Source of the DNA: Haliotis rufescens
Lineage: Eukaryota
DNA length: 64,000 bases
Direction: 5' to 3'
Assembly: GCF_023055435.1 (NCBI RefSeq)
Contig: NW_025963791.1
Coordinates: 25,730,001-25,794,000 of the forward strand
Shown: positions 1 through 55,242 of the stretch, piece by piece
Layout of the letters: the number at the start of each line of letters is the position of its first letter
Position numbering within the stretch: position 1 is the stretch's first letter
The notes under the pieces: generated by a model
What the model saw: only the letters and a program-made list of their open reading frames with translations
Told to the model about the DNA's origin: nothing
Database searches by the model: none
Program-made: the position numbers and the translations under genes

Positions 1-3000
1 CTTGGGCTGTTTGAAGCTCACCTGGCAAGCTGGAAGAACCTCTGAGGTGCACACTGGCTGTTGTCTTGACGCGCCGAGGAAGCCGCCCATTTTTTCTGAA
101 ATGGGAGAGAGAGTGAATGAAATTGTTCAGCCAAGATGGGGTTTTGCATGGTCAAAGGGATCAGGAGGGGCCTATGCAACAGCCCATGACTGCCTGGGGG
201 GTCCAGGGAGGGGCCACCCCATCATTGTAGACTTAAGACTTTCAGCAGGTTTAAGGGCTCCTATAGCTGCCCTTAAACCTGCTGAAAGTCTTAAGTCTAC
301 ACAAGCTCTTTAAAAAAAGACAGAGAGAAAAAGAATTTTGATTTGATTTTTGACCAGTTTCCTAGGGTGCCTTGGGCTGTTTGAAGCTCACCTGGCAAGC
401 TGGAAGAACCTCTGAGGTGTACACTGGCTGTTGTCTTGACGCGTCGAGGAAGCCGCCCATTTTTTCTGAAATGGGAGAGAGAGTGAATGAAATTGTTCAG
501 CCAAGATGGGGTTTTGCATGGTCAAAGGGATCAGGAGGGGCCTATGCAACAGCCCATGACTGCCTGGGGGGTCCAGGGAGGGGCCACCCCATCATTGTAG
601 ACTTAAGACTTTCAGCAGGTTTAAGGGCTCCTAAAGCTGCCCTTAAACCTGCTGAAAGTCTTAAGTCTACACAAGCTCTTTAAAAAAAGACAGAGAGAAA
701 AAGAATTTTGATTTGATTTTTGACCAGTTTCCTAGGGTGCCTTGGGCTGTTTGAAGCTCACCTGGCAAGCTGGAAGAACCTCTGAGGTGCACACTGGCTG
801 TTGTCTTGACGCGCTGAGGAAGCCGCCCATTTTTTCTGAAATGGGAGAGAGAGTGAATGAAATTGTTCAGCCAAGATGGGGTTTTGCATGGTCAAAGGGA
901 TCAGGAGGGGCCTATGCAACAGCCCATGACTGCCTGGGGGGTCCAGGGAGGGGCCACCCCATCATTGTAGACTTAAGACTTTCAGCAGGTTTAAGGGCTC
1001 CTATAGCTGCCCTTAAACCTGCTGAAAGTCTTAAGTCTACACAAGCTCTTTAAAAAAAGACAGAGAGAAAAAGAATTTTGATTTGATTTTTGACCAGTTT
1101 CCAAGGGTGCCTTGGGCTGTTTGAAGCTCACCTGGCAAGCTGGAAGAACCTCTGAGGTGTACACTGGCTGTTGTCTTGACGCGTCGAGGAAGCCGCCCAT
1201 TTTTTCTGAAATGGGAGAGAGAGTGAATGAAATTGTTCAGCCAAGATGGGGTTTTGCATGGTCAAAGGGATCAGGAGGGGCCTATGCAACAGCCCATGAC
1301 TGCCTGGGGGGTCCAGGGAGGGGCCACCCCATCATTGTAGACTTAAGACTTTCAGCAGGTTTAAGGGCTCCTATAGCTGCCCTTAAACCTGCTGAAAGTC
1401 TTAAGTCTACACAAGCTCTTTAAAAAAAGACAGAGAGAAAAAGAATTTTGATTTGATTTTTGACCAGTTTCCTAGGGTGCCTTGGGCTGTTTGAAGCTCA
1501 CCTGGCAAGCTGGAAGAACCTCTGAGGTGCACACTGGCTGTTGTCTTGACGCGCCGAGGAAGCCGCCCATTTTTTCTGAAATGGGAGAGAGAGTGAATGA
1601 AATTGTTCAGCCAAGATGGGGTTTTGCATGGTCAAAGGGATCAGGAGGGGCCTATGCAACAGCCCATGACTGCCTGGGGGGTCCAGGGAGGGGCCACCCC
1701 ATCATTGTAGACTTAAGACTTTCAGCAGGTTTAAGGGCTCCTATAGCTGCCCTTAAACCTGCTGAAAGTCTTAAGTCTACACAAGCTCTTTAAAAAAAGA
1801 CAGAGAGAAAAAGAATTTTGATTTGATTTTTGACCAGTTTCCTAGGGTGCCTTGGGCTGTTTGAAGCTCACCTGGCAAGCTGGAAGAACCTCTGAGGTGT
1901 ACACTGGCTGTTGTCTTGACGCGTCGAGGAAGCCGCCCATTTTTTCTGAAATGGGAGAGAGAGTGAATGAAATTGTTCAGCCAAGATGGGGTTTTGCATG
2001 GTCAAAGGGATCAGGAGGGTCCTATGCAACAGCCCATGACTGCCTGGGGGGTCCAGGGAGGGGCCACCCCATCATTGTAGACTTAAGACTTTCAGCAGGT
2101 TTAAGGGCTCCTATAGCTGCCCTTAAACCTGCTGAAAGTCTTAAGTCTACACAAGCTCTTTAAAAAAAGACAGAGAGAAAAAGAATTTTGATTTGATTTT
2201 TGACCAGTTTCCTAGGGTGCCTTGGGCTGTTTGAAGCTCACCTGGCAAGCTGGAAGAACCTCTGAGGTGTACACTGGCTGTTGTCTTGACGCGTCGAGGA
2301 AGCCGCCCATTTTTTCTGAAATGGGAGAGAGAGTGAATGAAATTGTTCAGCCAAGATGGGGTTTTGCATGGTCAAAGGGATCAGGAGGGGCCTATGCAAC
2401 AGCCCATGACTGCCTGGGGGGTCCAGGGAGGGGCCACCCCATCATTGTAGACTTAAGACTTTCAGCAGGTTTAAGGGCTCCTATAGCTGCCCTTAAACCT
2501 GCTGAAAGTCTTAAGTCTACACAAGCTCTTTAAAAAAAGACAGAGAGAAAAAGAATTTTGATTTGATTTTTGACCAGTTTCCTAGGGTGCCTTGGGCTGT
2601 TTGAAGCTCACCTGGCAAGCTGGAAGAACCTCTGAGGTGCACACTGGCTGTTGTCTTGACGCGTCGAGGAAGCCGCCCATTTTTTCTGAAATGGGAGAGA
2701 GAGTGAATGAAATTGTTCAGCCAAGATGGGGTTTTGCATGGTCAAAGGGATCAGGAGGGGCCTATGCAACAGCCCATGACTGCCTGGGGGGTCCAGGGAG
2801 GGGCCACCCCATCATTGTAGACTTAAGACTTTCAGCAGGTTTAAGGGCTCCTATAGCTGCCCTTAAACCTGCTGAAAGTCTTAAGTCTACACAAGCTCTT
2901 TAAAAAAAGACAGAGAGAAAAAGAATTTTGATTTGATTTTTGACCAGTTTCCTAGGGTGCCTTGGGCTGTTTGAAGCTCACCTGGCAAGCTGGAAGAACC

Positions 3001-6000
3001 TCTGAGGTGCACACTGGCTGTTGTCTTGACGCGTCGAGGAAGCCGCCCATTTTTTCTGAAATGGGAGAGAGAGTGAATGAAATTGTTCAGCCAAGATGGG
3101 GTTTTGCATGGTCAAAGGGATCAGGAGGGGCCTATGCAACAGCCCATGACTGCCTGGGGGGTCCAGGGAGGGGCCACCCCATCATTGTAGACTTAAGACT
3201 TTCAGCAGGTTTAAGGGCTCCTATAGCTGCCCTTAAACCTGCTGAAAGTCTTAAGTCTACACAAGCTCTTTAAAAAAAGACAGAGAGAAAAAGAATTTTG
3301 ATTTGATTTTTGACCAGTTTCCTAGGGTGCCTTGGGCTGTTTGAAGCTCACCTGGCAAGCTGGAAGAACCTCTGAGGTGCACACTGGCTGTTGTCTTGAC
3401 GCGCCGAGGAAGCCGCCCATTTTTTCTGAAATGGGAGAGAGAGTGAATGAAATTGTTCAGCCAAGATGGGGTTTTGCATGGTCAAAGGGATCAGGAGGGG
3501 CCTATGCAACAGCCCATGACTGCCTGGGGGGTCCAGGGAGGGGCCACCCCATCATTGTAGACTTAAGACTTTCAGCAGGTTTAAGGGCTCCTATAGCTGC
3601 CCTTAAACCTGCTGAAAGTCTTAAGTCTACACAAGCTCTTTAAAAAAAGACAGAGAGAAAAAGAATTTTGATTTGATTTTTGACCAGTTTCCTAGGGTGC
3701 CTTGGGCTGTTTGAAGCTCACCTGGCAAGCTGGAAGAACCTCTGAGGTGTACACTGGCTGTTGTCTTGACGCGTCGAGGAAGCCGCCCATTTTTTCTGAA
3801 ATGGGAGAGAGAGTGAATGAAATTGTTCAGCCAAGATGGGGTTTTGCATGGTCAAAGGGATCAGGAGGGGCCTATGCAACAGCCCATGACTGCCTGGGGG
3901 GTCCAGGGAGGGGCCACCCCATCATTGTAGACTTAAGACTTTCAGCAGGTTTAAGGGCTCCTAAAGCTGCCCTTAAACCTGCTGAAAGTCTTAAGTCTAC
4001 ACAAGCTCTTTAAAAAAAGACAGAGAGAAAAAGAATTTTGATTTGATTTTTGACCAGTTTCCTAGGGTGCCTTGGGCTGTTTGAAGCTCACCTGGCAAGC
4101 TGGAAGAACCTCTGAGGTGTACACTGGCTGTTGTCTTGACGCGTCGAGGAAGCCGCCCATTTTTTCTGAAATGGGAGAGAGAGTGAATGAAATTGTTCAG
4201 CCAAGATGGGGTTTTGCATGGTCAAAGGGATCAGGAGGGGCCTATGCAACAGCCCATGACTGCCTGGGGGGTCCAGGGAGGGGCCACCCCATCATTGTAG
4301 ACTTAAGACTTTCAGCAGGTTTAAGGGCTCCTATAGCTGCCCTTAAACCTGCTGAAAGTCTTAAGTCTATACAAGCTCTTTAAAAAAAGACAGAGAGAAA
4401 AAGAATTTTGATTTGATTTTTGACCAGTTTCCTAGGGTGCCTTGGGCTGTTTGAAGCTCACCTGGCAAGCTGGAAGAACCTCTGAGGTGCACACTGGCTG
4501 TTGTCTTGACGCGCTGAGGAAGCCGCCCATTTTTTCTGAAATGGGAGAGAGAGTGAATGAAATTGTTCAGCCAAGATGGGGTTTTGCATGGTCAAAGGGA
4601 TCAGGAGGGGCCTATGCAACAGCCCATGACTGCCTGGGGGGTCCAGGGAGGGGCCACCCCATCATTGTAGACTTAAGACTTTCAGCAGGTTTAAGGGCTC
4701 CTATAGCTGCCCTTAAACCTGCTGAAAGTCTTAAGTCTACACAAGCTCTTTAAAAAAAGACAGAGAGAAAAAGAATTTTGATTTGATTTTTGACCAGTTT
4801 CCTAGGGTGCCTTGGGCTGTTTGAAGCTCACCTGGCAAGCTGGAAGAACCTCTGAGGTGTACACTGGCTGTTGTCTTGACGCGTCGAGGAAGCCGCCCAT
4901 TTTTTCTGAAATGGGAGAGAGGGTGAATGAAATTGTTCAGCCAAGATGGGGTTTTGCATGGTCAAAGGGATCAGGAGGGGCCTATGCAACAGCCCATGAC
5001 TGCCTGGGGGGTCCAGGGAGGGGCCACCCCATCATTGTAGACTTAAGACTTTCAGCAGGTTTAAGGGCTCCTATAGCTGCCCTTAAACCTGCTGAAAGTC
5101 TTAAGTCTACACAAGCTCTTTAAAAAAAGACAGAGAGAAAAAGAATTTTGATTTGATTTTTGACCAGTTTCCTAGGGTGCCTTGGGCTGTTTGAAGCTCA
5201 CCTGGCAAGCTGGAAGAACCTCTGAGGTGCACACTGGCTGTTGTCTTGACGCGCCGAGGAAGCCGCCCATTTTTTCTGAAATGGGAGAGAGAGTGAATGA
5301 AATTGTTCAGCCAAGATGGGGTTTTGCATGGTCAAAGGGATCAGGAGGGGCCTATGCAACAGCCCATGACTGCCTGGGGGGTCCAGAGAGGGGCCACCCC
5401 ATTATTGTAGACTTAAGACTTTCAGCAGGTTTAAGGGCTCCTATAGCTGCCCTTAAACCTGCTGAAAGTCTTAAGTCTACACAAGCTCTTTAAAAAAAGA
5501 CAGAGAGAAAAAGAATTTTGATTTGATTTTTGACCAGTTTCCTAGGGTGCCTTGGGCTGTTTGAAGCTCACCTGGCAAGCTGGAAGAACCTCTGAGGTGC
5601 ACACTGGCTGTTGTCTTGACGCGTCGAGGAAGCCGCCCATTTTTTCTGAAATGGGAGAGAGAGTGAATGAAATTGTTCAGCCAAGATGGGGTTTTGCATG
5701 GTCAAAGGGATCAGGAGGGGCCTATGCAACAGCCCATGACTGCCTGGGGGGTCCAGGGAGGGGCCACCCCATCATTGTAGACTTAAGACTTTCAGCAGGT
5801 TTAAGGGCTCCTATAGCTGCCCTTAAACCTGCTGAAAGTCTTAAGTCTACACAAGCTCTTTAAAAAAAGACAGAGAGAAAAAGAATTTTGATTTGATTTT
5901 TGACCAGTTTCCTAGGGTGCCTTGGGCTGTTTGAAGCTCACCTGGCAAGCTGGAAGAACCTCTGAGGTGTACACTGGCTGTTGTCTTGACGCGTCGAGGA

Positions 6001-7262
6001 AGCCGCCCATTTTTTCTGAAATGGGAGAGAGAGTGAATGAAATTGTTCAGCCAAGATGGGGTTTTGCATGGTCAAAGGGATCAGGAGGGGCCTATGCAAC
6101 AGCCCATGACTGCCTGGGGGGTCCAGGGAGGGGCCACCCCATCATTGTAGACTTAAGACTTTCAGCAGGTTTAAGGGCTCCTATAGCTGCCCTTAAACCT
6201 GCTGAAAGTCTTAAGTATACACAAGCTCTTTAAAAAAAGACAGAGAGAAAAAGAATTTTGATTTGATTTTTGACCAGTTTCCTAGGGTGCCTTGGGCTGT
6301 TTGAAGCTCACCTGGCAAGCTGGAAGAACCTCTGAGGTGCACACTGGCTGTTGTCTTGACGCGTCGAGGAAGCCGCCCATTTTTTCTGAAATGGGAGAGA
6401 GAGTGAATGAAATTGTTCAGCCAAGATGGGGTTTTGCATGGTCAAAGGGATCAGGAGGGGCCTATGCAACAGCCCATGACTGCCTGGGGGGTCCAGGGAG
6501 GGGCCACCCCATCATTGTAGACTTAAGACTTTCAGCAGGTTTAAGGGCTCCTAAAGCTGCCCTTAAACCTGCTGAAAGTCTTAAGTCTACACAAGCTCTT
6601 TAAAAAAAGACAGAGAGAAAAAGAATTTTGATTTGATTTTTGACCAGTTTCCTAGGGTGCCTTGGGCTGTTTGAAGCTCACCTGGCAAGCTGGAAGAACC
6701 TCTGAGGTGCACACTGGCTGTTGTCTTGACGCGCCGAGGAAGCCGCCCATTTTTTCTGAAATGGGAGAGAGAGTGAATGAAATTGTTCAGCCAAGATGGG
6801 GTTTTGCATGGTCAAAGGGATCAGGAGGGGCCTATGCAACAGCCCATGACTGCCTGGGGGGTCCAGGGAGGGGCCACCCCATCATTGTAGACTTAAGACT
6901 TTCAGCAGGTTTAAGGGCTCCTATAGCTGCCCTTAAACCTGCTGAAAGTCTTAAGTCTACACAAGCTCTTTAAAAAAAGACAGAGAGAAAAAGAATTTTG
7001 ATTTGATTTTTGACCAGTTTCCTAGGGTGCCTTGGGCTGTTTGAAGCTCACCTGGCAAGCTGGAAGAACCTCTGAGGTGCACACTGGCTGTTGTCTTGAC
7101 GCGCCGAGGAAGCCGCCCATTTTTTCTGAAATGGGAGAGAGAGTGAATGAAATTGTTCAGCCAAGATGGGGTTTTGCATGGTCAAAGGGATCAGGAGGGG
7201 CCTATGCAACAGCCCATGACTGCCTGGGGGGGTCCAGGGAGGGGCCACCCCATCATTGTAGA
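1..7262. repeat. 370-bp tandem satellite, ~19.6 near-identical monomers, running off the left edge of the window
   Basis: Exact 370-bp period (ORF starts 2, 372, 742 ... 7032) with only a few substitutions between monomers. Each monomer has a perfect 33-bp inverted repeat (first copy 226-258 / 269-301) around a 10-bp spacer TCCTATAGCT. Confidence 0.99.
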
Positions 7263-8665
7263 CTTTAGACCTTCTGTAGCTTCAAGGGTTTCTGTTGATA
7301 CGCCAAGGAAGCCACCATTTTTTCTCTGAAATGGGAGAGAGAGTGAATGTCATAATAACAATTTACATGAAAAAATTGCACCTTTACAAAAATAGTAGTC
7401 TTGACTGGGACTAAACTTATGTCAAAGCATTTCAAGTTACTTGAGACTTCTGCAATGATTAATACCAACAAATCTGTTTTTATTTCTGATGAAACTGTCA
7501 GATCATGATCAATGCGGTTATGTCTATTTTACCTGGGTTTTTTTAATTTCATGTTGTTCATACTTTTCGACAGATCTTCCATCTTGAGTAACATTAAACT
7601 GCATGTGCTCATATCTAATTAGATCCAATTAGATGCTCATCTATTATTATCTGGAATAATGGAAAATATCATCACTGATCATGTATTATATCTAATTTTA
7701 TTATTTGCCAAATGGTTATTCATAGATGTATATTGAATTTGAAAAATAAATTCCAAACAGATTTTATACAAATAGGGCATCATATCATATATTCTTTTGT
7801 TTGGAGATTAAAGTTGTGTCACTTTAATACATGGAATTGAATTTCATACTTTTTACTTCATTTTCTGTTCAGAATCTGTTCATATGGTTATTTTTATCCA
7901 GAAAGAAGATTGCACATTCCTGAACCTCTGTCTCTCAGACACATTAGAATAAATGGAGAAAGGCAGCCAACTCAAGTCTAGAATGATTTGGCAAGTCCTA
8001 ATTGCCTGAGCCATGGGCCTGATTAATAAACATTGTTCTAGGCACCATTTGGATTTTATTTTATATATTTATATCACAAGCATGATAACTCTTTTTCTGG
8101 GACACCATGTGAATCTACTCCCTGGAATCTTTTCAGGGTTTCGGAAATAAAAAATATATAGTTGCATCTTGTAGTTGACCAACTTTTGCCACACGCAGAG
8201 ATTGCTTTGCTCTTGAATATAGCAGAGATTGCTTTGCTCTTGAATATAACAAGTAGAGAAAGGTATATTGTATAAGTATGGAGCATGATGACAAGAGGTT
8301 TTTAATGTGTTGGATCTGCGAGTAATAGCAAAGACATGTCAATGTTTCGATGAGGGCTAATGTACACCACCGAATGTTTCGGAGTGAGGCGAGTTGGGTT
8401 GACTCTGTAATTCTCGGAACTTTCGATCTGTCCGAAGTCGAGGCTCGCAAATATAGTCCAGCACAATATTCAAAGACACATAAACTACATGTTATATACC
8501 TGATGTAGACATTGTGAGGGAAACATCGTATCGCGCAATGACAGCCGAGACAGCGATGCGTTCGTTAGACATCAACAGCTTTGAGGAAGATAGTGTCACG
8601 TGCATACACAAGCCACGCCCACTCATGAATATTGTAGACTTAAGACCATTGTAGGTTTAAGGGCA
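6928..8665. mobile_element. Putative ~1.7-kb non-autonomous TIR DNA element whose left end is the satellite monomer
   Basis: Left end TGCCCTTAAACCTGCTGAAAGTCTTAAGTCTACA (6928) is the near-inverse of TGTAGACTTAAGACCATTGTAGGTTTAAGGGCA (8633-8665). A degenerate internal copy lies at ~7257-7290. No TSD or transposase recognised. Confidence 0.6.
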
Positions 8666-8799
8666 CAACAGACGTGCACTAGGGGAGAAAGGTCGAGACC
8701 TTTGGCTGGTCTTTGCCTTTTTAGGGTTGTTCTGCTGCTGGAGGTCAGTTACGATACGTTAGCATCTTGAGAGACATGGCGCCCGTATGTTTTCTCGGT

Positions 8800-15327: not shown

Positions 15328-17300
15328 ATGACAAACAGAATCTACCACTTGTCATAACGAACTAATCTGTTGTCCAATCAATCAGTTTTATTCAGTACTT
15401 AAAAGGCCACAGGCCTATAGTACAATGCGTATTTACATGTAGGTGACGTGGTTGTTGTCATGACAAACTAAACTACCAGTTGCCATGACAAACTAAATCT
15501 ACCCGTTGTCATGACAAACAAAACTACCAGTTGTCATGACAAACAGAATCTACCCGTTGTCATGACAAACTAAATCTACCAGTTGTCATAACAAACTAAA
15601 TCTACCAGTAGTCAGAACGAACAGAATCTACTAGTTGTCATGACAAACAGAATCTACCAGATGTCCTAACGAACTAAACTACCAATTGCCATGACAAACT
15701 AAATCTACCAGTTGTCATGACAAACTAAATCTACCAGATGTCATGACAAACTGAATCTACCAGTTGTAAAGACAATCAACCTGTACATTGTATCATGACA
15801 AAATAAATCTACTCGGTGTCCCACCACACTAATCTACCAGGTGTCCCACCACACTAAATCTACCACATGCCCCATCACACTAAAACTACCAGGTGTCCCA
15901 CCACACTAAATATACAGGTGTCCCACCACACTAATCTACCAGGTGTCCCACCACACTAAATCTACCAGGTGTCCTACCACACTAAATCTACCAGGTGTCC
16001 CGCTACACTAAATCTACCACATGCCCCATCACACTAAATCTACCAAGTGTCATAGCACACTAAATCTACCAGGTGTTCCACCACACTAAATATACAGGTG
16101 TCCCACCACACTAAATCTACCACATGCCCCACCACACTAAATCTACCAGATGTCATAGCACACTAAATCTACCAGATGTCCCACCACACTAAATAAACAG
16201 GTCTCCCACCACACTACATCTACCTGGTGTCCCACCACACTAAATCTACCAGATGTCCTACCACACTAAATATACAGGTGTCCCACCACACTTAACTACA
16301 AGGTATCCCACCACACTAAATATACAGGTGTCCCACCACACTAAATCTACAAGGTGTCCTGCCACACTAGATATACAGGTGTCCCACCACACTAAATCTA
16401 CCAGGTGTCCCACCACACTAAATCTACCTGGTGTCCCACCAGACTAAATCTACCAGGTGTCCTACCACACTAAATCTATCAGGTGTCCCGCCACACTAAA
16501 TCTTCCACATGCCCCATCACACTAAGTCTACCAAGTGTCATAGCACACTAAATCTACCAGGTGTTCCACCACACTAAATCTACCAGGTGTCCCACCACAC
16601 TAAATCTACCACATGCCCCACCACACTAAATCTACCAGATGTCCCACCACACTAAATCTACCAGGTGTTCCACCACACTACATCTACCAGATGTCCCACC
16701 ACACTAAATATACAGGTCTCCCACCACACTACATCTACCTGGTGTCCCACCACACTAAATCTACCAGATGTCCTACCACACTAAATATACAGGTGTCCCA
16801 CAACACAAAATCTACCAGGTGGCCTACCACACTAAATATACAGGTGTCCCACCACACTAAATCTACCAGGTGTCCCACCACACTAAATCTACCAGGTGTC
16901 CCCCCACACTAAATCTACCAGATGTCCCACCACACTAAATCTACCAGGTGTCCCACAACACAAAATCTACCAGGTGGCCTACCACACTAAATCTACCAGG
17001 TGTCCCCCCACACTAAATCTACCAGATGTCCCACCACACTAAATCTACCAGGTGTTCCACCACACTACATCTACCAGATGTCCCACCACACTAAATATAC
17101 AGGTCTCCCACCACACTACATCTACCTGGTGTCCCACCACACTAAATCTACCAGGTGGCCTACCACACTAAATATACAGGTGTCCCACCACACTAAATCT
17201 ACCAGGTGTCCCACCACACTAAATCTACCAGGTGTCCCCCCACACTAAATCTACCAGGTGTCCCCCCACACTAAATCTACCAGGCGCCCACCACACTAAA
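15328..17300. repeat. 26-bp minisatellite with two related sub-arrays
   Basis: ACTAAATCTACCAGTTGTCATGACAA units at ~15330-15810, then ACTAAATCTACCAGGTGTCCCACCAC units at ~15815-17300. Confidence 0.97.
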
Positions 17301-17864
17301 CCTAATTTCCCTCCCCCACAGTCGTCACTCTGAACAAGAGTTGGGGGTACTGGGAACCTATTCTGCCCCAGAATCCCACAGGAATGATCCCCGACATACC
17401 TGAATATATCGCAGTTGAAGCCTCCAGTTCCAGCCATGCTGTACTGGTTAAGGTGTATCCAGACACGTTACGTGGAACTCATAACAACTTGAACTGAATC
17501 ATCCAGACAAAATAGTGAGATTAAGTATCAACAATGGCAGAAAAAATCTCCATCACACTAATCAGTATTAAATGTGTTGGAGCTCCGCCATGCAACTCTC
17601 ACTCAGTGTTGATATTATTGTGGTCTCGGCCAGGATGCAGCTCTGGTATTGTAACACCGTATGTGCAAGGTAACAGCTGCCATATCCCCAGCTGTCGTCT
17701 CAGGGGCGTGCCAGTAACATACAGTGTGAAAACAGTTGTGCTGATACGGAATGTTTTAGATATTATGATCAAGGTGGCTGGCAAGGTGACGGAATGACCT
17801 AAAAATACTCCAAAGCACAACTTCTCAATATGCCTTCATCATATTTGTATTTTGGTCGGGATAA

Positions 17865-51200: not shown

Positions 51201-52052
51201 CTTTGCGTCGGCAATATCCCACCCATATAACGACGAGAACAAATCATACATTCATAAAAGACACATTAGAACATTAAGGTAAATATCACCAATTGATTCG
51301 GTGTAAATCAACTGGATAAATGTAAATCATTTCTAGACATAATTCATACATGTATTGTGTATTAAGTGATGAGACTGTATTAATCTGACACCATAAAATC
51401 GAAATACCACTTTCTGTCGGAACTACTTTCGGTATGCTTCAACGTAAACACGCGTGTGCGCGTGATCGCAAGTCAGTCTGGTTGTTATTGAACTTATCGT
51501 GCGAAGTGATTGAAGCGTCATAAAATCTCGTGAGCGTGCCAGATTGTGGCAAATCCAGCTGTGCAGCTGTCATTCAAATTTCGACCACTGTTTCAGATTC
51601 GTTTAATTGAAGTACAGAAGCACCTTACCCGATATTCTAGCACCAACTGCTTGTAGACTCTCGTCTCCACATGACTTGAGAACGCCGGCCACTACTTCGT
51701 CTATGACCCCCTGGAGCTCCCTGCCCAAATCTTGTATGCGCATAGCCCTGGACACAAGTAGGACAGGCCCTGCACTAGCTACACTCTCCGAGTTGGGACG
51801 AGAGTCAATTCCTTCGTCGGACCCAGAGTAACGTTTCCGAGTTTCCCTTTGGTCCTGGTGTAATTTGAGTTTGGAAGCTAACGCTTTATTTGCGCAACAC
51901 TGGTTTAAAAGGATTTCCAAAACTTCTTTGTGTATGCCATCAGCGACATTGTCGTCCCATGCAGACATTGCGTCACCCAATGTTGTCGTCAGATCATCTG
52001 GGTTTACACCTGAATTGTGCATACTTAAGTTAGAATTTGTCACGACCACCAT
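48239..52052 (-). CDS. Uncharacterised ~228-aa protein with DSGxxS-type motifs, 4 coding exons
   Basis: Exons 52052-51629, 49946-49902, 49564-49503 and 48394-48239. All three donors are GTAAG, phases 1, 1, 0, and the joined frame is open. TATA at 52172-52161. The start could instead be the ATG at 52022, and an optional 38-nt exon 49393-49356 is possible. Confidence 0.7.
49984..50245 (-). mobile_element. Family D SINE (duplicated at 52663-52923)
   Basis: Matches 17865-18139. Confidence 0.88.
50990..51156 (+). mobile_element. 5'-truncated family D SINE private to duplicate copy 1
   Basis: TSD ACTCATAT; empty site at ~53663-53672 in copy 2. Confidence 0.88.
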
Positions 52053-52160
52053 GACATATAATAATGCAGAATCGTAAATACCCGAGTAAACTGTGCCCAA
52101 AATAAATGCCGGATTGATTGACGCACCAAAAGATATGTCTTGTACAAAACGCCAGCAGCG

Positions 52161-52172
52161 TGTATATATAAA
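52161..52172 (-). promoter_or_regulatory. TATA box (duplicate at 55109-55120)
   Basis: TTTATATATACA ~110 bp upstream of the ATG, conserved in both copies. Confidence 0.55.
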
Positions 52173-52580
52173 CGCCTGTTCAAACGTAAGAGGAAAATCT
52201 AATGATTACATAATGCCCCCTTTCCAAAAAAACCGTTAATAAGTCTTTGATATATCCCAAAGCTCGGACTTCTTATGTGTTCCATTAAAACAAGAGGGGC
52301 GGTCGGGTAGCCTTGTGGTTAAAGCGTTCGCTCGTCACAATAAGGCGGTACACAATCCCCGGGTACATTATAGTCGTCTTTATTATTATGCGTTATTTAG
52401 ATAAGATAAAATAGCATACCCTTCTGAATTGATCACATAAAAATTAACTTTTTCCGTTTGGTCTTGACTTTCAACATACTCTACCCATCTTGCTGGACTC
52501 TTGTTTCAATTAGTTTGTTTTACTGTCGATTCGTGAATAGATGACGGTTCTATCAACATTGAAAACCTCGTCATCCTTAC

Positions 52581-55000
52581 CTCCACTCGCTCTGTTACTG
52601 GCATGACCGCTGTCAGTTGATGCGACTGAAACACGATCACGAAAACAATATATGTCGACTATTGAGTGAGTGAGTGAGTTGGATTTTACGCCGCTCTTAA
52701 CAGTATTACAGTTATATCGGGCCGTGTCAGCTTAATGTGGGAGGAAAGCCCGAAGTGATGCAGACCTCAGACGTTTACCACTTCGGTGAAACCCACGAGC
52801 ACAGGTATGGTGCTGACAAACCTAGATACATAATCGGGGCGAACCGGGTTTCGAACCCACATCATAGGTTTCTGGCGTGCCCAAGGGAAGCAACTCTGTA
52901 CACCGAATCGCGGCGCCTCGACTCTTGAAAAAGCAAAAGAAGAGAGTTACAGTTGGACCGATAAACTGAATACAAGACACACACGAAATGACATTGTACA
53001 AGCAGATTATACCTTTCATCTCTGGCATGCACAACGACATATTAGTAGCTAGTGCGTTTGGTTTAACGAAGCTTTGAAAATTAATGTTACCTCACGTCGT
53101 GACTGGGAGGTGGGATAGCCTAGCGGTTATATATAGAGTTCGCTCGTCACGCCGAAGCCGCGGGTTCGATTCCCCAAATGGGTACAATGTGTGAAGCCCC
53201 TTTCTGGTGTCCCCTGCCGTGATACTGCTGGAATATTTTCTAAGAGCAGCGTAAAACTATACTCACTCACGTTGTGAAAGCTAAACCACTTTCCTACCCA
53301 GAGTTCCTTGCGATCAACCTAGTACCTCTGCATGCGCAATTTCTCATCACATCTTACACAGTCCATTAAAAAAATCACATTATGGTTTTCATCTGTTTTA
53401 TTTTTTTAAAGTCTACACATTAACAAAAAAAAGTGTTTTTAAGTGGTCATCTTTTACTGAGAAAATATCCTTGGGAAACCAACGGGCATGGGTATGGTGC
53501 TAACAAACCATGATTATAATCTGGGCGATTCCAGGAATCAACGACCAGCGGATCCTGGCACGGTCAATGGATGTACCTCTGCACAGCCACAAAGGGCGAA
53601 AGAGTGTGAAATTCTAGACCACGTTGGATGCAGATCAGGTGGATAGAGCAATACTATTATTACTCATATTAGTGCCAGGGCGTCAGTGAGTGTGTTAAAG
53701 GTAGACTTTGCGTCGGCAATATCCCACCCATATAACGACGAGAACAAATCATACATTCATAAAAGACGCATTAGAACATTACGGTAAATATCACCAATTG
53801 ATTCGGTGTAAATCAACTGGATAAATGTAAATCATTTCTAGACATAATTCATACATGTAAGGTGTATTAAGTGATGAGACTGTATTTATCTGACAACACA
53901 AAATCGAAATACCACTTTCTGTCGGAACTACTTTCGGTATGCTTCAACGTAAACACGCGTGTGCGCGCGTGTGTGTGTGATCGCAACATTCGTCATCAAT
54001 CGCCCCTTTCCGTAACCTGCAACAGGACTCGTCCCCCTATCGATGAATGTTATGTACGAAAATACGACAAACCAATCAGAATGCGCGTATGATTTCAAGT
54101 TCTTCGTCAAAGAATCCCTCAGAAATAATTTTTGATTTTACATATGTCTTGCATATAAGAATATACCAAAGACATAGTTAAGTTCAATCATGCTGTATAA
54201 TTCCACACGTCCCGATGTGCTTTAAATTGCATCTGAAATATATATAATATATGTGGAAAATGTGTGAACCATTACGCAACGAATTGACAATTGTTTGAGG
54301 TATGCCCGTTTGCGCTAAGGCGGAACCCGGTCGCAAAAATGGCCACGAGAGGGGCACGAGTCGCAATTCGGCTTGTCCCGGAATAACACGAGTTGGTCAC
54401 GAATGTGATCGCAAGTCAGTCTGGTTGTTATTGAACTTATCGTGCGAAGTGATTGAAGCGTCATAAAATCGTGCCGGATTGTGGCAAATGCAACAATGCA
54501 GCTGTCATTCAAATTTCGACCACTGTTTAATTGTTTAATTGTTTAATCGTTTAATTGAAGTATAGAAGCACCTTACCCGACATTCTAGCACCAACTGCTT
54601 GTAGACTCTCGTCTCCACATGACTTGAGAACGCCGGCCACTACTTCGTCTATGACCCCCTTGAGCTCCCTGCCCAAATCTTGTATGCGCATAGCCCTGGA
54701 CACAAGTAGGACAGGCCCTGCACTGGCTACACTCTCCGAGTTGGGACGAGAGTCAATTCCTTCGTCGGACCCAGAGTAACGTTTCCGAGTTTCCCTTTGG
54801 TCCTGGTGTAATTTGAGTTTGGAAGCTAGCTCTTTATTTGCGCAACACTGGTTTAAAAAGATTTCCAAAATTTCTTTGTGTATGCCATCAGTGACATTGT
54901 CGTCCCGTGCAGACATTGCGTCACCCACTGTCGTCGTCAGATCATCTGGGTTTACACCTGAATTGTGCATGTTTAAGTTAGAATTTGTCACGACCACCAT
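52581..55000 (-). CDS. Duplicated exons 1-2 of the 228-aa gene (alternative 5' module or partial copy)
   Basis: Exons 55000-54577 and 52625-52581 are intact with splice sites. Nine aa differences from copy 1. Exons 3-4 are not duplicated. Confidence 0.6.
53987..54405 (+). mobile_element. 419-bp MITE with 9-bp TSD (Mutator-like), private to duplicate copy 2
   Basis: CATTCGT...ACGAATG termini, TSD TGATCGCAA, and an empty site at ~51463-51471. Confidence 0.92.
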
Positions 55001-55242
55001 GACATATAATAATGCAGAATCGTAAATTCCCGAGTAAACTGTGCCCAAAATAAATGCCGGATTGATTGACGCACCAAAATATATGTCTTGTGTAAAACGC
55101 CAGCCACGTGTATATATAAACGCCTGTTCAAACGTAAGAGGAAAATCTAATGATTACATAATGATCCCTTTCCAAAAAACCCGTTAATAAGTCTTTGATA
55201 TATCCCAAACCTCGGTCTCCTTTTGTGTTCCCTTAAAACAAG

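What the first reader, a model, noticed from the sequence alone, without database searches (positions are those of the whole stretch)
1..8665. Satellite made of TIR-bounded units joined end to end: possibly an amplified transposon-circle junction
Seen: re-phased at 269, each monomer is a 360-bp unit that begins GCCCTTAAACCTGCTGAAAGTCTTAAGTCTACA and ends with its exact reverse complement, with units separated by a nearly constant 10-bp spacer. The last unit instead has a degenerate repeat (~7257-7290), runs through ~1.3 kb of unique DNA and ends in a diverged right TIR at 8633-8665. Inference: the array came from the left 360 bp of a 1.7-kb TIR element, either as a mini-element that circularised through a TIR-spacer-TIR junction and was rolling-circle amplified, or by repeated insertion at its own end. 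Satellites derived from transposons are known in molluscs. The unusual part is having the apparent parent element still attached and a perfect end-to-end junction in every unit.
Basis: partly seen in the sequence, partly recalled or inferred. Interest (0 to 1): 0.72.

Follow-up and report, generated by a model that had tools for sequence, protein, structure and literature searches.

The report
Giant satellite-carrying Ginger-like transposon
The repeat array is not a chain of tiny transposons but cargo inside a 49,000-base jumping gene, in what is most likely an abalone, that has an unbroken gene for its jumping enzyme, holds three satellite arrays, sits at many places in the genome and has likely moved recently, so it likely spreads satellite DNA as it jumps.

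Summary
The 370-bp array and its 33-bp palindrome arms are real, but the 1.7-kb parent and the circle-junction story are not supported. The array (21.5 units) is internal to a 48,858-bp DNA transposon that ends at window 8670 and starts 40 kb upstream: 79-bp TIRs (TGT…ACA), a 6-bp target duplication, an intact 15-exon integrase+OTU transposase, and two more satellites (171 and 172 bp). Dispersed copies of 5–59 kb exist; 9 of 15 paired ends have perfect 6-bp duplications. The four youngest copies (0.15–0.31% apart) have the longest arrays. The palindrome arms copy a motif pair from inside the TIR and lack its terminal six bases; no free 360-bp element was found. Six full arrays start and end in the same phase, as expected if two ~190-bp direct repeats were amplified by unequal exchange. 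Two related families in this genome also carry kb-scale satellites. The transposase is closest to Repbase 'Ginger2' oyster entries but fails Ginger2's TSD and zinc-finger criteria; published Gingers are 2.6–7 kb. Whether copies jumped at full present size is not shown. The scan had not noted this before.

The parts
1..8670 (+). Right-hand 8.7 kb of a 48,858-bp TIR transposon (G000:C13:25689813-25738670). Parts left of the window, in C13 coordinates: left TSD GACGTG and left TIR 25689813-25689891; nested ~1.5-kb insert with 7.5 x 172-bp repeats about 25691345-25692878; 94 x 171-bp array 25695042-25711161; 15-exon, 870-aa integrase+OTU transposase gene on the minus strand about 25711478-25725888; start of the 370-bp array at 25729339
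1..7288 (+). 370-bp satellite array, 19.7 units in the window; 21.5 in all, beginning about 660 bp left of the window at unit position 181
226..301 (.). One example of the 76-bp palindrome in every unit: 33-bp arm, 10-bp spacer, 33-bp arm; each arm holds two copies of a ~15-bp motif that also occurs twice in the TIR (TIR positions 7-21 and 24-38)
7257..7289 (+). Degenerate last right arm; resembles the arm version of older subfamilies
7295..7349 (+). Extra diverged copy of unit positions 168-221 (85-87%), likely a remnant of an older ~200-bp direct repeat
7289..8591 (+). Right subterminal region of the element, shared by the dispersed copies; upstream of the transposase gene
8592..8670 (-). 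True right TIR, 79 bp, ends ...GGGCACAACA on the + strand
8671..8676 (+). Right target-site duplication GACGTG

Best explanation
The 370-bp array is an internal part of a 48,858-bp transposon with 79-bp terminal inverted repeats, a 6-bp target duplication and an unbroken 15-exon integrase-type transposase gene, and it likely grew by unequal exchange or break repair between two ~190-bp direct repeats inside the element, not by rolling-circle copying of a mini-element. Shown: the element's ends, duplication, gene, three internal arrays, dispersed copies, and fixed array boundaries (half unit + n units). Inferred: the Ginger-like transposase cuts at TGT...ACA and inserts at N-R-CGT-N; the ancestral element had X-Y-arm / spacer-arm-Z / X-Y-arm' (the 1.5-unit state still seen in older copies), and misalignment of the two X-Y-arm blocks adds 370-bp steps. 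The arms are likely subterminal transposase-binding motifs copied from inside the TIR; the hairpin may raise the break rate. Multi-variant arrays likely travelled with the element (about 28 kb or more by my rough count of shared monomer types) and are reshuffled faster than the backbone mutates.
For: Ends and TSD: 77/79 TIR, GACGTG both sides; perfect 6-bp TSD in 9 of 15 paired copies at unrelated sites, lengths 4.9-59.5 kb. Array inside the element: 19 of 20 upstream stretches of tail copies hold the monomer; of 4 older monomer loci fetched, 3 lie directly beside the element's tail and 1 (L131) lies 28 kb inside from a left end. Same start (unit 181) and same degenerate end in C13, C112, C1, C223a, C2, C135; 1.5-unit state in C104 and C76. 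Gene: rve and OTU; intact spliced frame in 5 of 11 copies; database proteins 97-98% identical, named from Haliotis. Recency: four copies 0.15-0.31% apart over 8.5 kb; in 3 of 4 public runs laid, one contig covers the right flank from 8669 and runs on unlike the element, as an empty site would (fourth run has no cover; letters not seen). Motif: monomer matches TIR 16/18, above all 60 shuffles; older subfamilies show the same changes on both arms, closer to the TIR. Shared monomer variants between sister copies.
Against: 6 of 15 pairs lack a clean TSD (two damaged right ends, three sharing one left flank, one with 2 mismatches). Arrays of sister copies are not collinear: longest exact shared block 616 bp (171-bp array) and 1455 bp (370-bp array), while self-duplications reach 4.9 kb, so much of the present length may have arisen in place. 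Transposase binding to the motif and the repair mechanism are untested. The TIR motif is not significant in the 171-bp monomers of this family or of family B (14/18, p about 0.1-0.3). Arm conservation over the rest of the monomer is modest overall (5.5% vs 7.3% mismatches in 32 non-independent units).
Confidence: 0.82

Rival explanations
1. The element jumps at about 25-30 kb with short arrays; the long arrays grow only after insertion, and older copies have short arrays because they collapsed with age or never grew.
For: Arrays of copies only 0.15% apart are reshuffled and differ 21.5 vs 36.5 (370 bp) and 7.5 vs 35.5 units (172 bp); exact self-duplications of 2.9-4.9 kb inside arrays.
Against: All four youngest copies are 45-59 kb and the copy number rises along the tree's branching order, 1.5-2.5, 5.5, ~10, 15.5, 21.5-36.5 (rho -0.91, n=10, C76 dropped, copies not independent); steady growth in place predicts the reverse. 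Several monomer variants are shared between arrays at different loci. Compatible with the best explanation on everything but the size at the jump.
Confidence: 0.35
2. The first palindrome arose once, long ago, as a right-end/left-end junction (circle or double insertion) that lost its terminal bases, and was later amplified inside the element.
For: Arms are 85% like TIR positions 7-39 and are head-to-head; older arms are more TIR-like; junctions with deleted TIR tips are common in hobo and Bari1 tandems (PMC5932611, passages).
Against: Outside the arms the monomer showed no match to the element's left or right subterminal DNA except the adjacent 55-bp remnant; spacer is not TSD-like; family C's monomers carry TIR motifs with no junction, so motif copying needs no junction.
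Confidence: 0.22
3. One reading: a 360-bp mini-element from a 1.7-kb parent was rolling-circle amplified or inserted repeatedly at its own end.
For: Each unit can be phased as arm...arm with a constant spacer.
Against: No 1.7-kb parent; fixed mid-unit boundaries; none of 6 pattern hits is a randomly flanked arm; spacer length and sequence unlike the TSD.
Confidence: 0.03
4. The copies are segmental duplications or a Polinton/Maverick remnant rather than cut-and-paste insertions.
For: 6-bp TSD and large size recall Polintons; four copies (C583, C76, C104, C82) do share one left flank.
Against: Homology stops at the TIRs with different TSDs in 9 copies; no polymerase, ATPase or capsid family among 115 backbone frames of 52 aa or more; termini TGT, not AG; a Polinton-like integrase from this genome is on a long branch (weakly resolved tree, its place unsure).
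Confidence: 0.02

Closest known systems
Ginger2/TDD DNA transposons, Repbase entries Ginger2-1_CGi, Ginger2-3_CGi, Ginger2-1/2_CySi (PMC2836005 parts 1-2 read; PMC10045372 passages and supplement alignment)
   Same: TGTNR termini, TIR in range, integrase core with the same YILSVIDVFSR-type and PQSQGK motifs; in the supplement the PQSQGK string occurs only in these Ginger2 rows (5 of 5 places, compared by eye); P0024 in my alignment is very close to Ginger2-1_CGi over the core.
   Different: 6-bp CG-containing TSD instead of 4-5 bp AT-rich; no H2C2 finger; OTU domain; 14 introns; 25-59 kb versus 2.7-6.7 kb in the 2010 table. Full Repbase entries were not available, so their lengths and TSDs are unknown to me.
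Ginger1 (PMC2836005)
   Same: TGTNR termini, OTU domain behind the integrase, introns, CG-containing target (CCGG/CCGT versus N-R-CGT-N).
   Different: 4-bp TSD, YPYY, H2C2 and GPY/F motifs, 2.6-7 kb, 0-4 introns.
IS3EU/GingerRoot (PMC6839031, PMC10045372, passages)
   Same: 6-bp GC-rich TSD, no HHCC finger.
   Different: Mostly TA...TA termini, 3.9-12.9 kb, no sequence-specific target, OTU not mentioned (0 hits in PMC6839031).
Tetris foldback element with TIR-220 arrays, Drosophila virilis (PMC4079207, abstract and outline)
   Same: Tandem repeats belonging to the element's terminal region grow into kb-size satellite arrays inside it.
   Different: Tetris is apparently non-autonomous; here the element has an intact transposase and recent copies carrying 8-16 kb arrays.
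Helitron/Helentron-carried satellites of Crassostrea gigas and the Xenopus MITE miDNA4 (PMC8268682, PMC12628747, passages)
   Same: Mobile elements disperse internal satellite arrays; the nested 172-bp insert here looks like such an element.
   Different: Short arrays (about six monomers on average in oyster) in rolling-circle or miniature non-autonomous elements.
Tandem TE arrays from double insertion or rolling circle (PMC5932611, passages)
   Same: Apparent end-to-end junction repeated in tandem.
   Different: There the unit is a whole element and the junction usually holds a TSD; here the unit is a 370-bp internal piece and the spacer is not a TSD.

Membership tests
Ginger2/TDD | TGTNR termini and TIRs of about 45-300 bp | tested here: met
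   TGTTG, 79 bp; definition in PMC2836005
Ginger2/TDD | Integrase core grouping with Ginger2 transposases | tested here: inconclusive
   Motifs match Repbase Ginger2 CGi/CySi rows by eye; those rows could not be put in my tree, which is weakly resolved
Ginger2/TDD | 4-5 bp TSD, AT-rich RTATAY target | tested here: not met
   6 bp N-R-CGT-N in 9 of 15 pairs; related family B 6 bp in 2 of 3, family C 5 bp in 2 of 2. PMC6839031 states 6 bp for Ginger2, in conflict with PMC2836005 and PMC10045372
Ginger2/TDD | H2C2 zinc finger | tested here: not met
   No H2C2 family in any of 16 aligned proteins; no conserved His/Cys upstream of the core
Ginger2/TDD | No GPY/F or YPYY motif | tested here: met
   Neither motif seen in the alignment, by eye
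Ginger1 | C-terminal OTU or Ulp1 domain | tested here: met
   OTU E=6.5e-13; 15 of 16 aligned proteins
Ginger1 | 4-bp CCGG/CCGT TSD | tested here: not met
Ginger1 | YPYY, H2C2 and GPY/F motifs | tested here: not met
IS3EU/GingerRoot | 6-bp TSD and no HHCC finger | tested here: met
IS3EU/GingerRoot | TA...TA termini (TG...CA in 5 of 77 GingerRoots) | tested here: not met
   TG...CA in all three families
IS3EU/GingerRoot | Phylogenetic placement in the IS3EU/GingerRoot clade | not testable with these tools
   Reference sequences exist only in a paper supplement; the PQSQGK motif was found only in Ginger2 rows
Polinton/Maverick | Protein-primed polymerase, ATPase, capsid genes; AG termini | tested here: not met
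   Only rve, OTU and one sub-threshold 'SH' hit among 115 frames (arrays, first 188 bp and the right tail not scanned); TGT termini
Tandem TE array by double insertion | Junction = intact ends separated by one TSD | tested here: not met
   Arms lack terminal 6 bases; spacer 10 bp without CGT
Rolling-circle concatemer of a mini-element | Free monomer element and array ends that vary between insertions | tested here: not met
   No free monomer seen (one search listed only the best part of 351 matches, 201 not shown, and several old loci were not fetched); identical end phases in 6 of 8
Rolling-circle concatemer of a mini-element | Extrachromosomal circles of 370-bp multiples | not testable with these tools
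   needs Circle-seq or 2D gels

The most novel reading that the evidence does not exclude
A lineage of autonomous Ginger-like transposons jumps as 45-60 kb units with no viral genes, and runs a satellite ratchet: the internal monomers are amplified copies of the transposase's own binding motif, so transposase binding and repair of excision breaks lengthen the arrays with each round, and the most active copies become the largest satellite carriers. At least two of three related families in this genome would have evolved such motif-bearing satellites independently.
Probability: 0.3. Interest if true: 0.82.

Novelty: new variant of a known kind. Interest (0 to 1): 0.62.

Why it matters
It shows an apparently active cut-and-paste element about 4-8 times longer than the longest Ginger elements tabulated in the 2010 paper, with a 15-exon transposase and half its length in satellite. 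It gives a natural, dated series (1.5 to 36.5 units across copies 0.15-1.9% apart, with fixed boundaries) in which birth, growth, turnover and dispersal of a satellite can be measured, a long-standing question usually studied in non-autonomous or rolling-circle elements. It also points to an OTU-bearing, 5-6 bp TSD lineage, apparently filed under Ginger2, that does not meet that group's definition, and to database proteins named 'uncharacterized protein' that are transposases. A transposase that moves tens of kb to a defined ACGT-type target could interest tool builders.

Tried and rejected
Circle junction or double insertion as the array's mechanism: rejected. Polinton: rejected. 'All internal satellites carry the TIR motif': only 370-bp (family A) and 206-bp (family C) pass; 171-bp A, 171-bp B, 172-bp and 80-bp do not. 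'Arrays jumped at present length': not shown. Expression: no RNA holder listed and no RNA run was laid on the gene, so it is open. Atlas look-up gave only generic rve clusters. Tree of 58 cores did not finish its careful search; the quick tree has 7 of 53 strong branches (P0055 dropped). Family B copy B57 has no clean TSD. One cross-pairing of two neighbouring elements (62-kb row) was dropped from the 16 paired rows. Genome DNA searches scored only the best 38-40 candidates, so copy numbers are lower bounds. Literature: eight searches listed no paper on giant or satellite-bearing Ginger elements or on this family; Repbase itself, subscription papers and most supplements were not searchable and may hold it.
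Full report
1. Observation. The array is as described: period 370 bp, 19.7 copies over 1-7288, 99% matches. The 33-bp arm is exact at 17 of 19 left and 19 of 19 right positions; the spacer is TCCTATAGCT in 15 of 18 complete units. The junction folds into a 33-bp stem (z -13.5, 0 of 200 shuffles). The degenerate arm at 7257-7289 and the 8633 match are present.

2. The tail is not unique. A search of the own genome with 7340-8665 gave 60 matches from 40 scored of 1453 candidates. Most copies share sequence past 8665 to ...CACAACA (window 8670) and are then followed by N-R-CGT. In 19 of 20 upstream stretches fetched the same 370-bp monomer precedes the tail, from 1 to at least 27 hits. In this locus the array starts only about 660 bp left of the window, at unit position 181, and is preceded by more shared sequence.

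3. The element. It spans G000:C13:25689813-25738670, 48,858 bp, with 79-bp TIRs (77/79, starting TGTTGTGCCC) and GACGTG on both sides. Inside, left to right: a nested ~1.5-kb insert with 7.5 units of 172 bp (array also in C112, C1, C223a, C135; insert absent from C2, C35, C335, C13b), 94 units of 171 bp, a gene on the minus strand, 21.5 units of 370 bp, the tail. About 25 kb of 49 kb is satellite. Pairing left and right ends gave 15 pairs (one cross-pairing dropped): 9 have a perfect 6-bp duplication at unrelated sites (GACGTG, GGCGTT, GGCGTC, GACGTA, TACGTG, AACGTT, CACGTT, AGCGTC, TACGTC), lengths 48.9, 59.5, 45.5, 44.9, 4.9, 28.5, 6.0, 32.8, 28.9 kb; 6 do not.

4. The gene. Pfam finds rve and OTU and nothing polymerase- or capsid-like in 115 backbone frames. 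Database relatives are 97-98% identical and named from Haliotis, so the host is most likely an abalone; more distant rve+OTU proteins are named from a mussel and an oyster. Using P0002 as guide, this copy has 15 exons, 14 GT-AG introns, 870 aa, no internal stop, 846/870 identical; the frame is intact in 5 of 11 copies. The second and third catalytic residues D238 and E273 (35 apart) are invariant in 16 proteins. The 370-bp array lies 3.4 kb upstream of the first coding exon. Expression was not tested.

5. Recency. Over an 8.5-kb backbone block four copies differ by 0.15-0.31%, the others by 0.6-1.9%. The left flank ends in CA-GACGTG, which would explain a start at 8669, so these are likely empty alleles; I could not see the letters, and the fourth run has no cover there.

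6. What the palindrome is. The TIR holds two copies of a ~15-bp motif (positions 7 and 24); each arm holds the same pair, and the motif was found nowhere else in the element. The arms stop short of the terminal TGTTGT. The spacer has a CTA/TAG centre and neither the length nor the CGT core of the TSD. A pattern for an arm preceded by C or G, which should catch about half of randomly flanked ends, gave 6 hits, all a spacer variant inside arrays; of 4 older monomer loci fetched, 3 lie directly beside the tail and 1 lies inside a diverged copy. In older subfamilies both arms carry the same substitutions and are nearer the TIR, so the palindrome predates the expansion and its arms change together. 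Binding by the transposase is my inference from repeated subterminal motifs in other DNA transposons (recalled).

7. How the array grew. In C13, C112, C1, C223a, C2 and C135 (6 of 8 typed) the array starts at unit 181 and ends in the same degenerate arm, giving 21.5, 36.5, 28.5, 22.5, 15.5 and 5.5 units; C104 and C76 have 1.5. The 1.5-unit state is two ~190-bp direct repeats 370 bp apart, the natural substrate for unequal exchange or slipped break repair (inference). Copy number rises along the tree towards the youngest copies (rho -0.91 against nearest-neighbour distance, n=10, C76 dropped, not independent). Sister arrays share variants (152T, 272T, 309A, 366A in C13 and C112; 187A, 361C, 233T+235T in C1 and C223a), so multi-unit arrays were likely carried. 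Against full-size jumping: monomer order is not kept, the longest exact shared blocks are 616 and 1455 bp, and exact self-duplications reach 4.9 kb. Turnover is thus much faster than point mutation, and the size at the moment of the jump is bounded only at roughly 28 kb or more (my estimate).

8. A lineage trait. A protein search found two more families in the genome. Family B (52% identical over the query): 39.4 and 40.1 kb with 6-bp duplications CACGTC and GACGTC, third copy unclear; 171-bp arrays of 19-59 units on both sides of the gene in inverted orientation; backbones 99.4-99.8% alike. Family C (47%): 15.3 and 27.7 kb, 5-bp duplications in 2 of 2, a 912-aa open frame, 206-bp arrays of 6-42 units at both ends and an 80-bp array. 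Family C's monomer matches its own TIR 17/18 and family A's 370-bp monomer 16/18, above all 60 shuffles; the two 171-bp monomers reach 14/18, within the shuffles.

9. Comparison. Read: PMC2836005 parts 1-2 of 5; passages of PMC10045372 (plus supplement search), PMC6839031, PMC6431247, PMC5932611, PMC8268682, PMC12628747, PMC6947457, PMC10294476; part 1 of 3 of PMC3575427; abstract and outline of PMC4079207. It works like a Ginger element (TGT ends, integrase-type transposase). The core motifs match Repbase Ginger2-1_CGi, 2-3_CGi and the CySi entries by eye, but TSD and zinc finger fail Ginger2's definition, and TSD and motifs fail Ginger1's despite the OTU domain, so I call it Ginger-like. Satellites inside elements are known (Tetris, oyster Helentrons, miDNA4), in non-autonomous or rolling-circle elements. 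Eight searches listed nothing on giant or satellite-bearing Gingers; Repbase and unseen supplements may hold it.

10. Verdict. Interest 0.62; the ratchet reading, if true, 0.82 at probability 0.3.

Noticed in passing
G000:C35 from 22673485 (L115-L118, L137), C594 (L119-L122, L135), C57 (L123-L126, L136): Family B: 35-40 kb related transposon with short imperfect TIRs, spliced rve+OTU gene and inverted 171-bp satellite arrays on both sides; three copies 99.4-99.8% alike.
   Followed up: partly
G000:C223 near 49672844 (L127, L128) and C556 near 54283590 (L129, L130, L139-L141): Family C: 15-28 kb, 5-bp TSD, intronless 912-aa frame, TIRs of 21-22 bp sub-repeats that recur in 206-bp satellites; the C223 copy sits inside a 155-bp satellite.
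   Followed up: partly
L034 (element positions 1533-3066): Nested insertion with sub-terminal hairpin, (CGTCGG)n and 172-bp repeats, 4.5-35.5 units among sister copies; Helentron/DINE-1-like by structure (label recalled).
   Followed up: partly
L155-L156 (G000:C605 about 30601850-30611590): Polinton/Maverick-like region (318-aa integrase frame with polymerase-, ATPase- and capsid-like frames, labels by eye); over 100 similar integrase matches genome-wide. Observed only.
   Followed up: no
L059, L066, L067, L069 (C583, C104, C82, C76): Four copies share one left flank but differ on the right: likely segmental duplication or recombination near contig ends.
   Followed up: no
L012/L016 (C223:2625992-2628505): Two element right ends joined tail to tail in inverted orientation.
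   Followed up: no
L134:7356-7867 and L082 (C4:208078-208755): Tandem repeats of the element's TIR region itself (~160-240 bp steps), i.e. end-derived mini-arrays.
   Followed up: no
window 15454-17304: 26-bp minisatellite, about 71 units, strongly strand-skewed.
   Followed up: no
window 51603-52205 and 54551-55153 (-): Two near-identical 200-aa open frames 2.9 kb apart: likely a local duplication of an exon or small gene.
   Followed up: no
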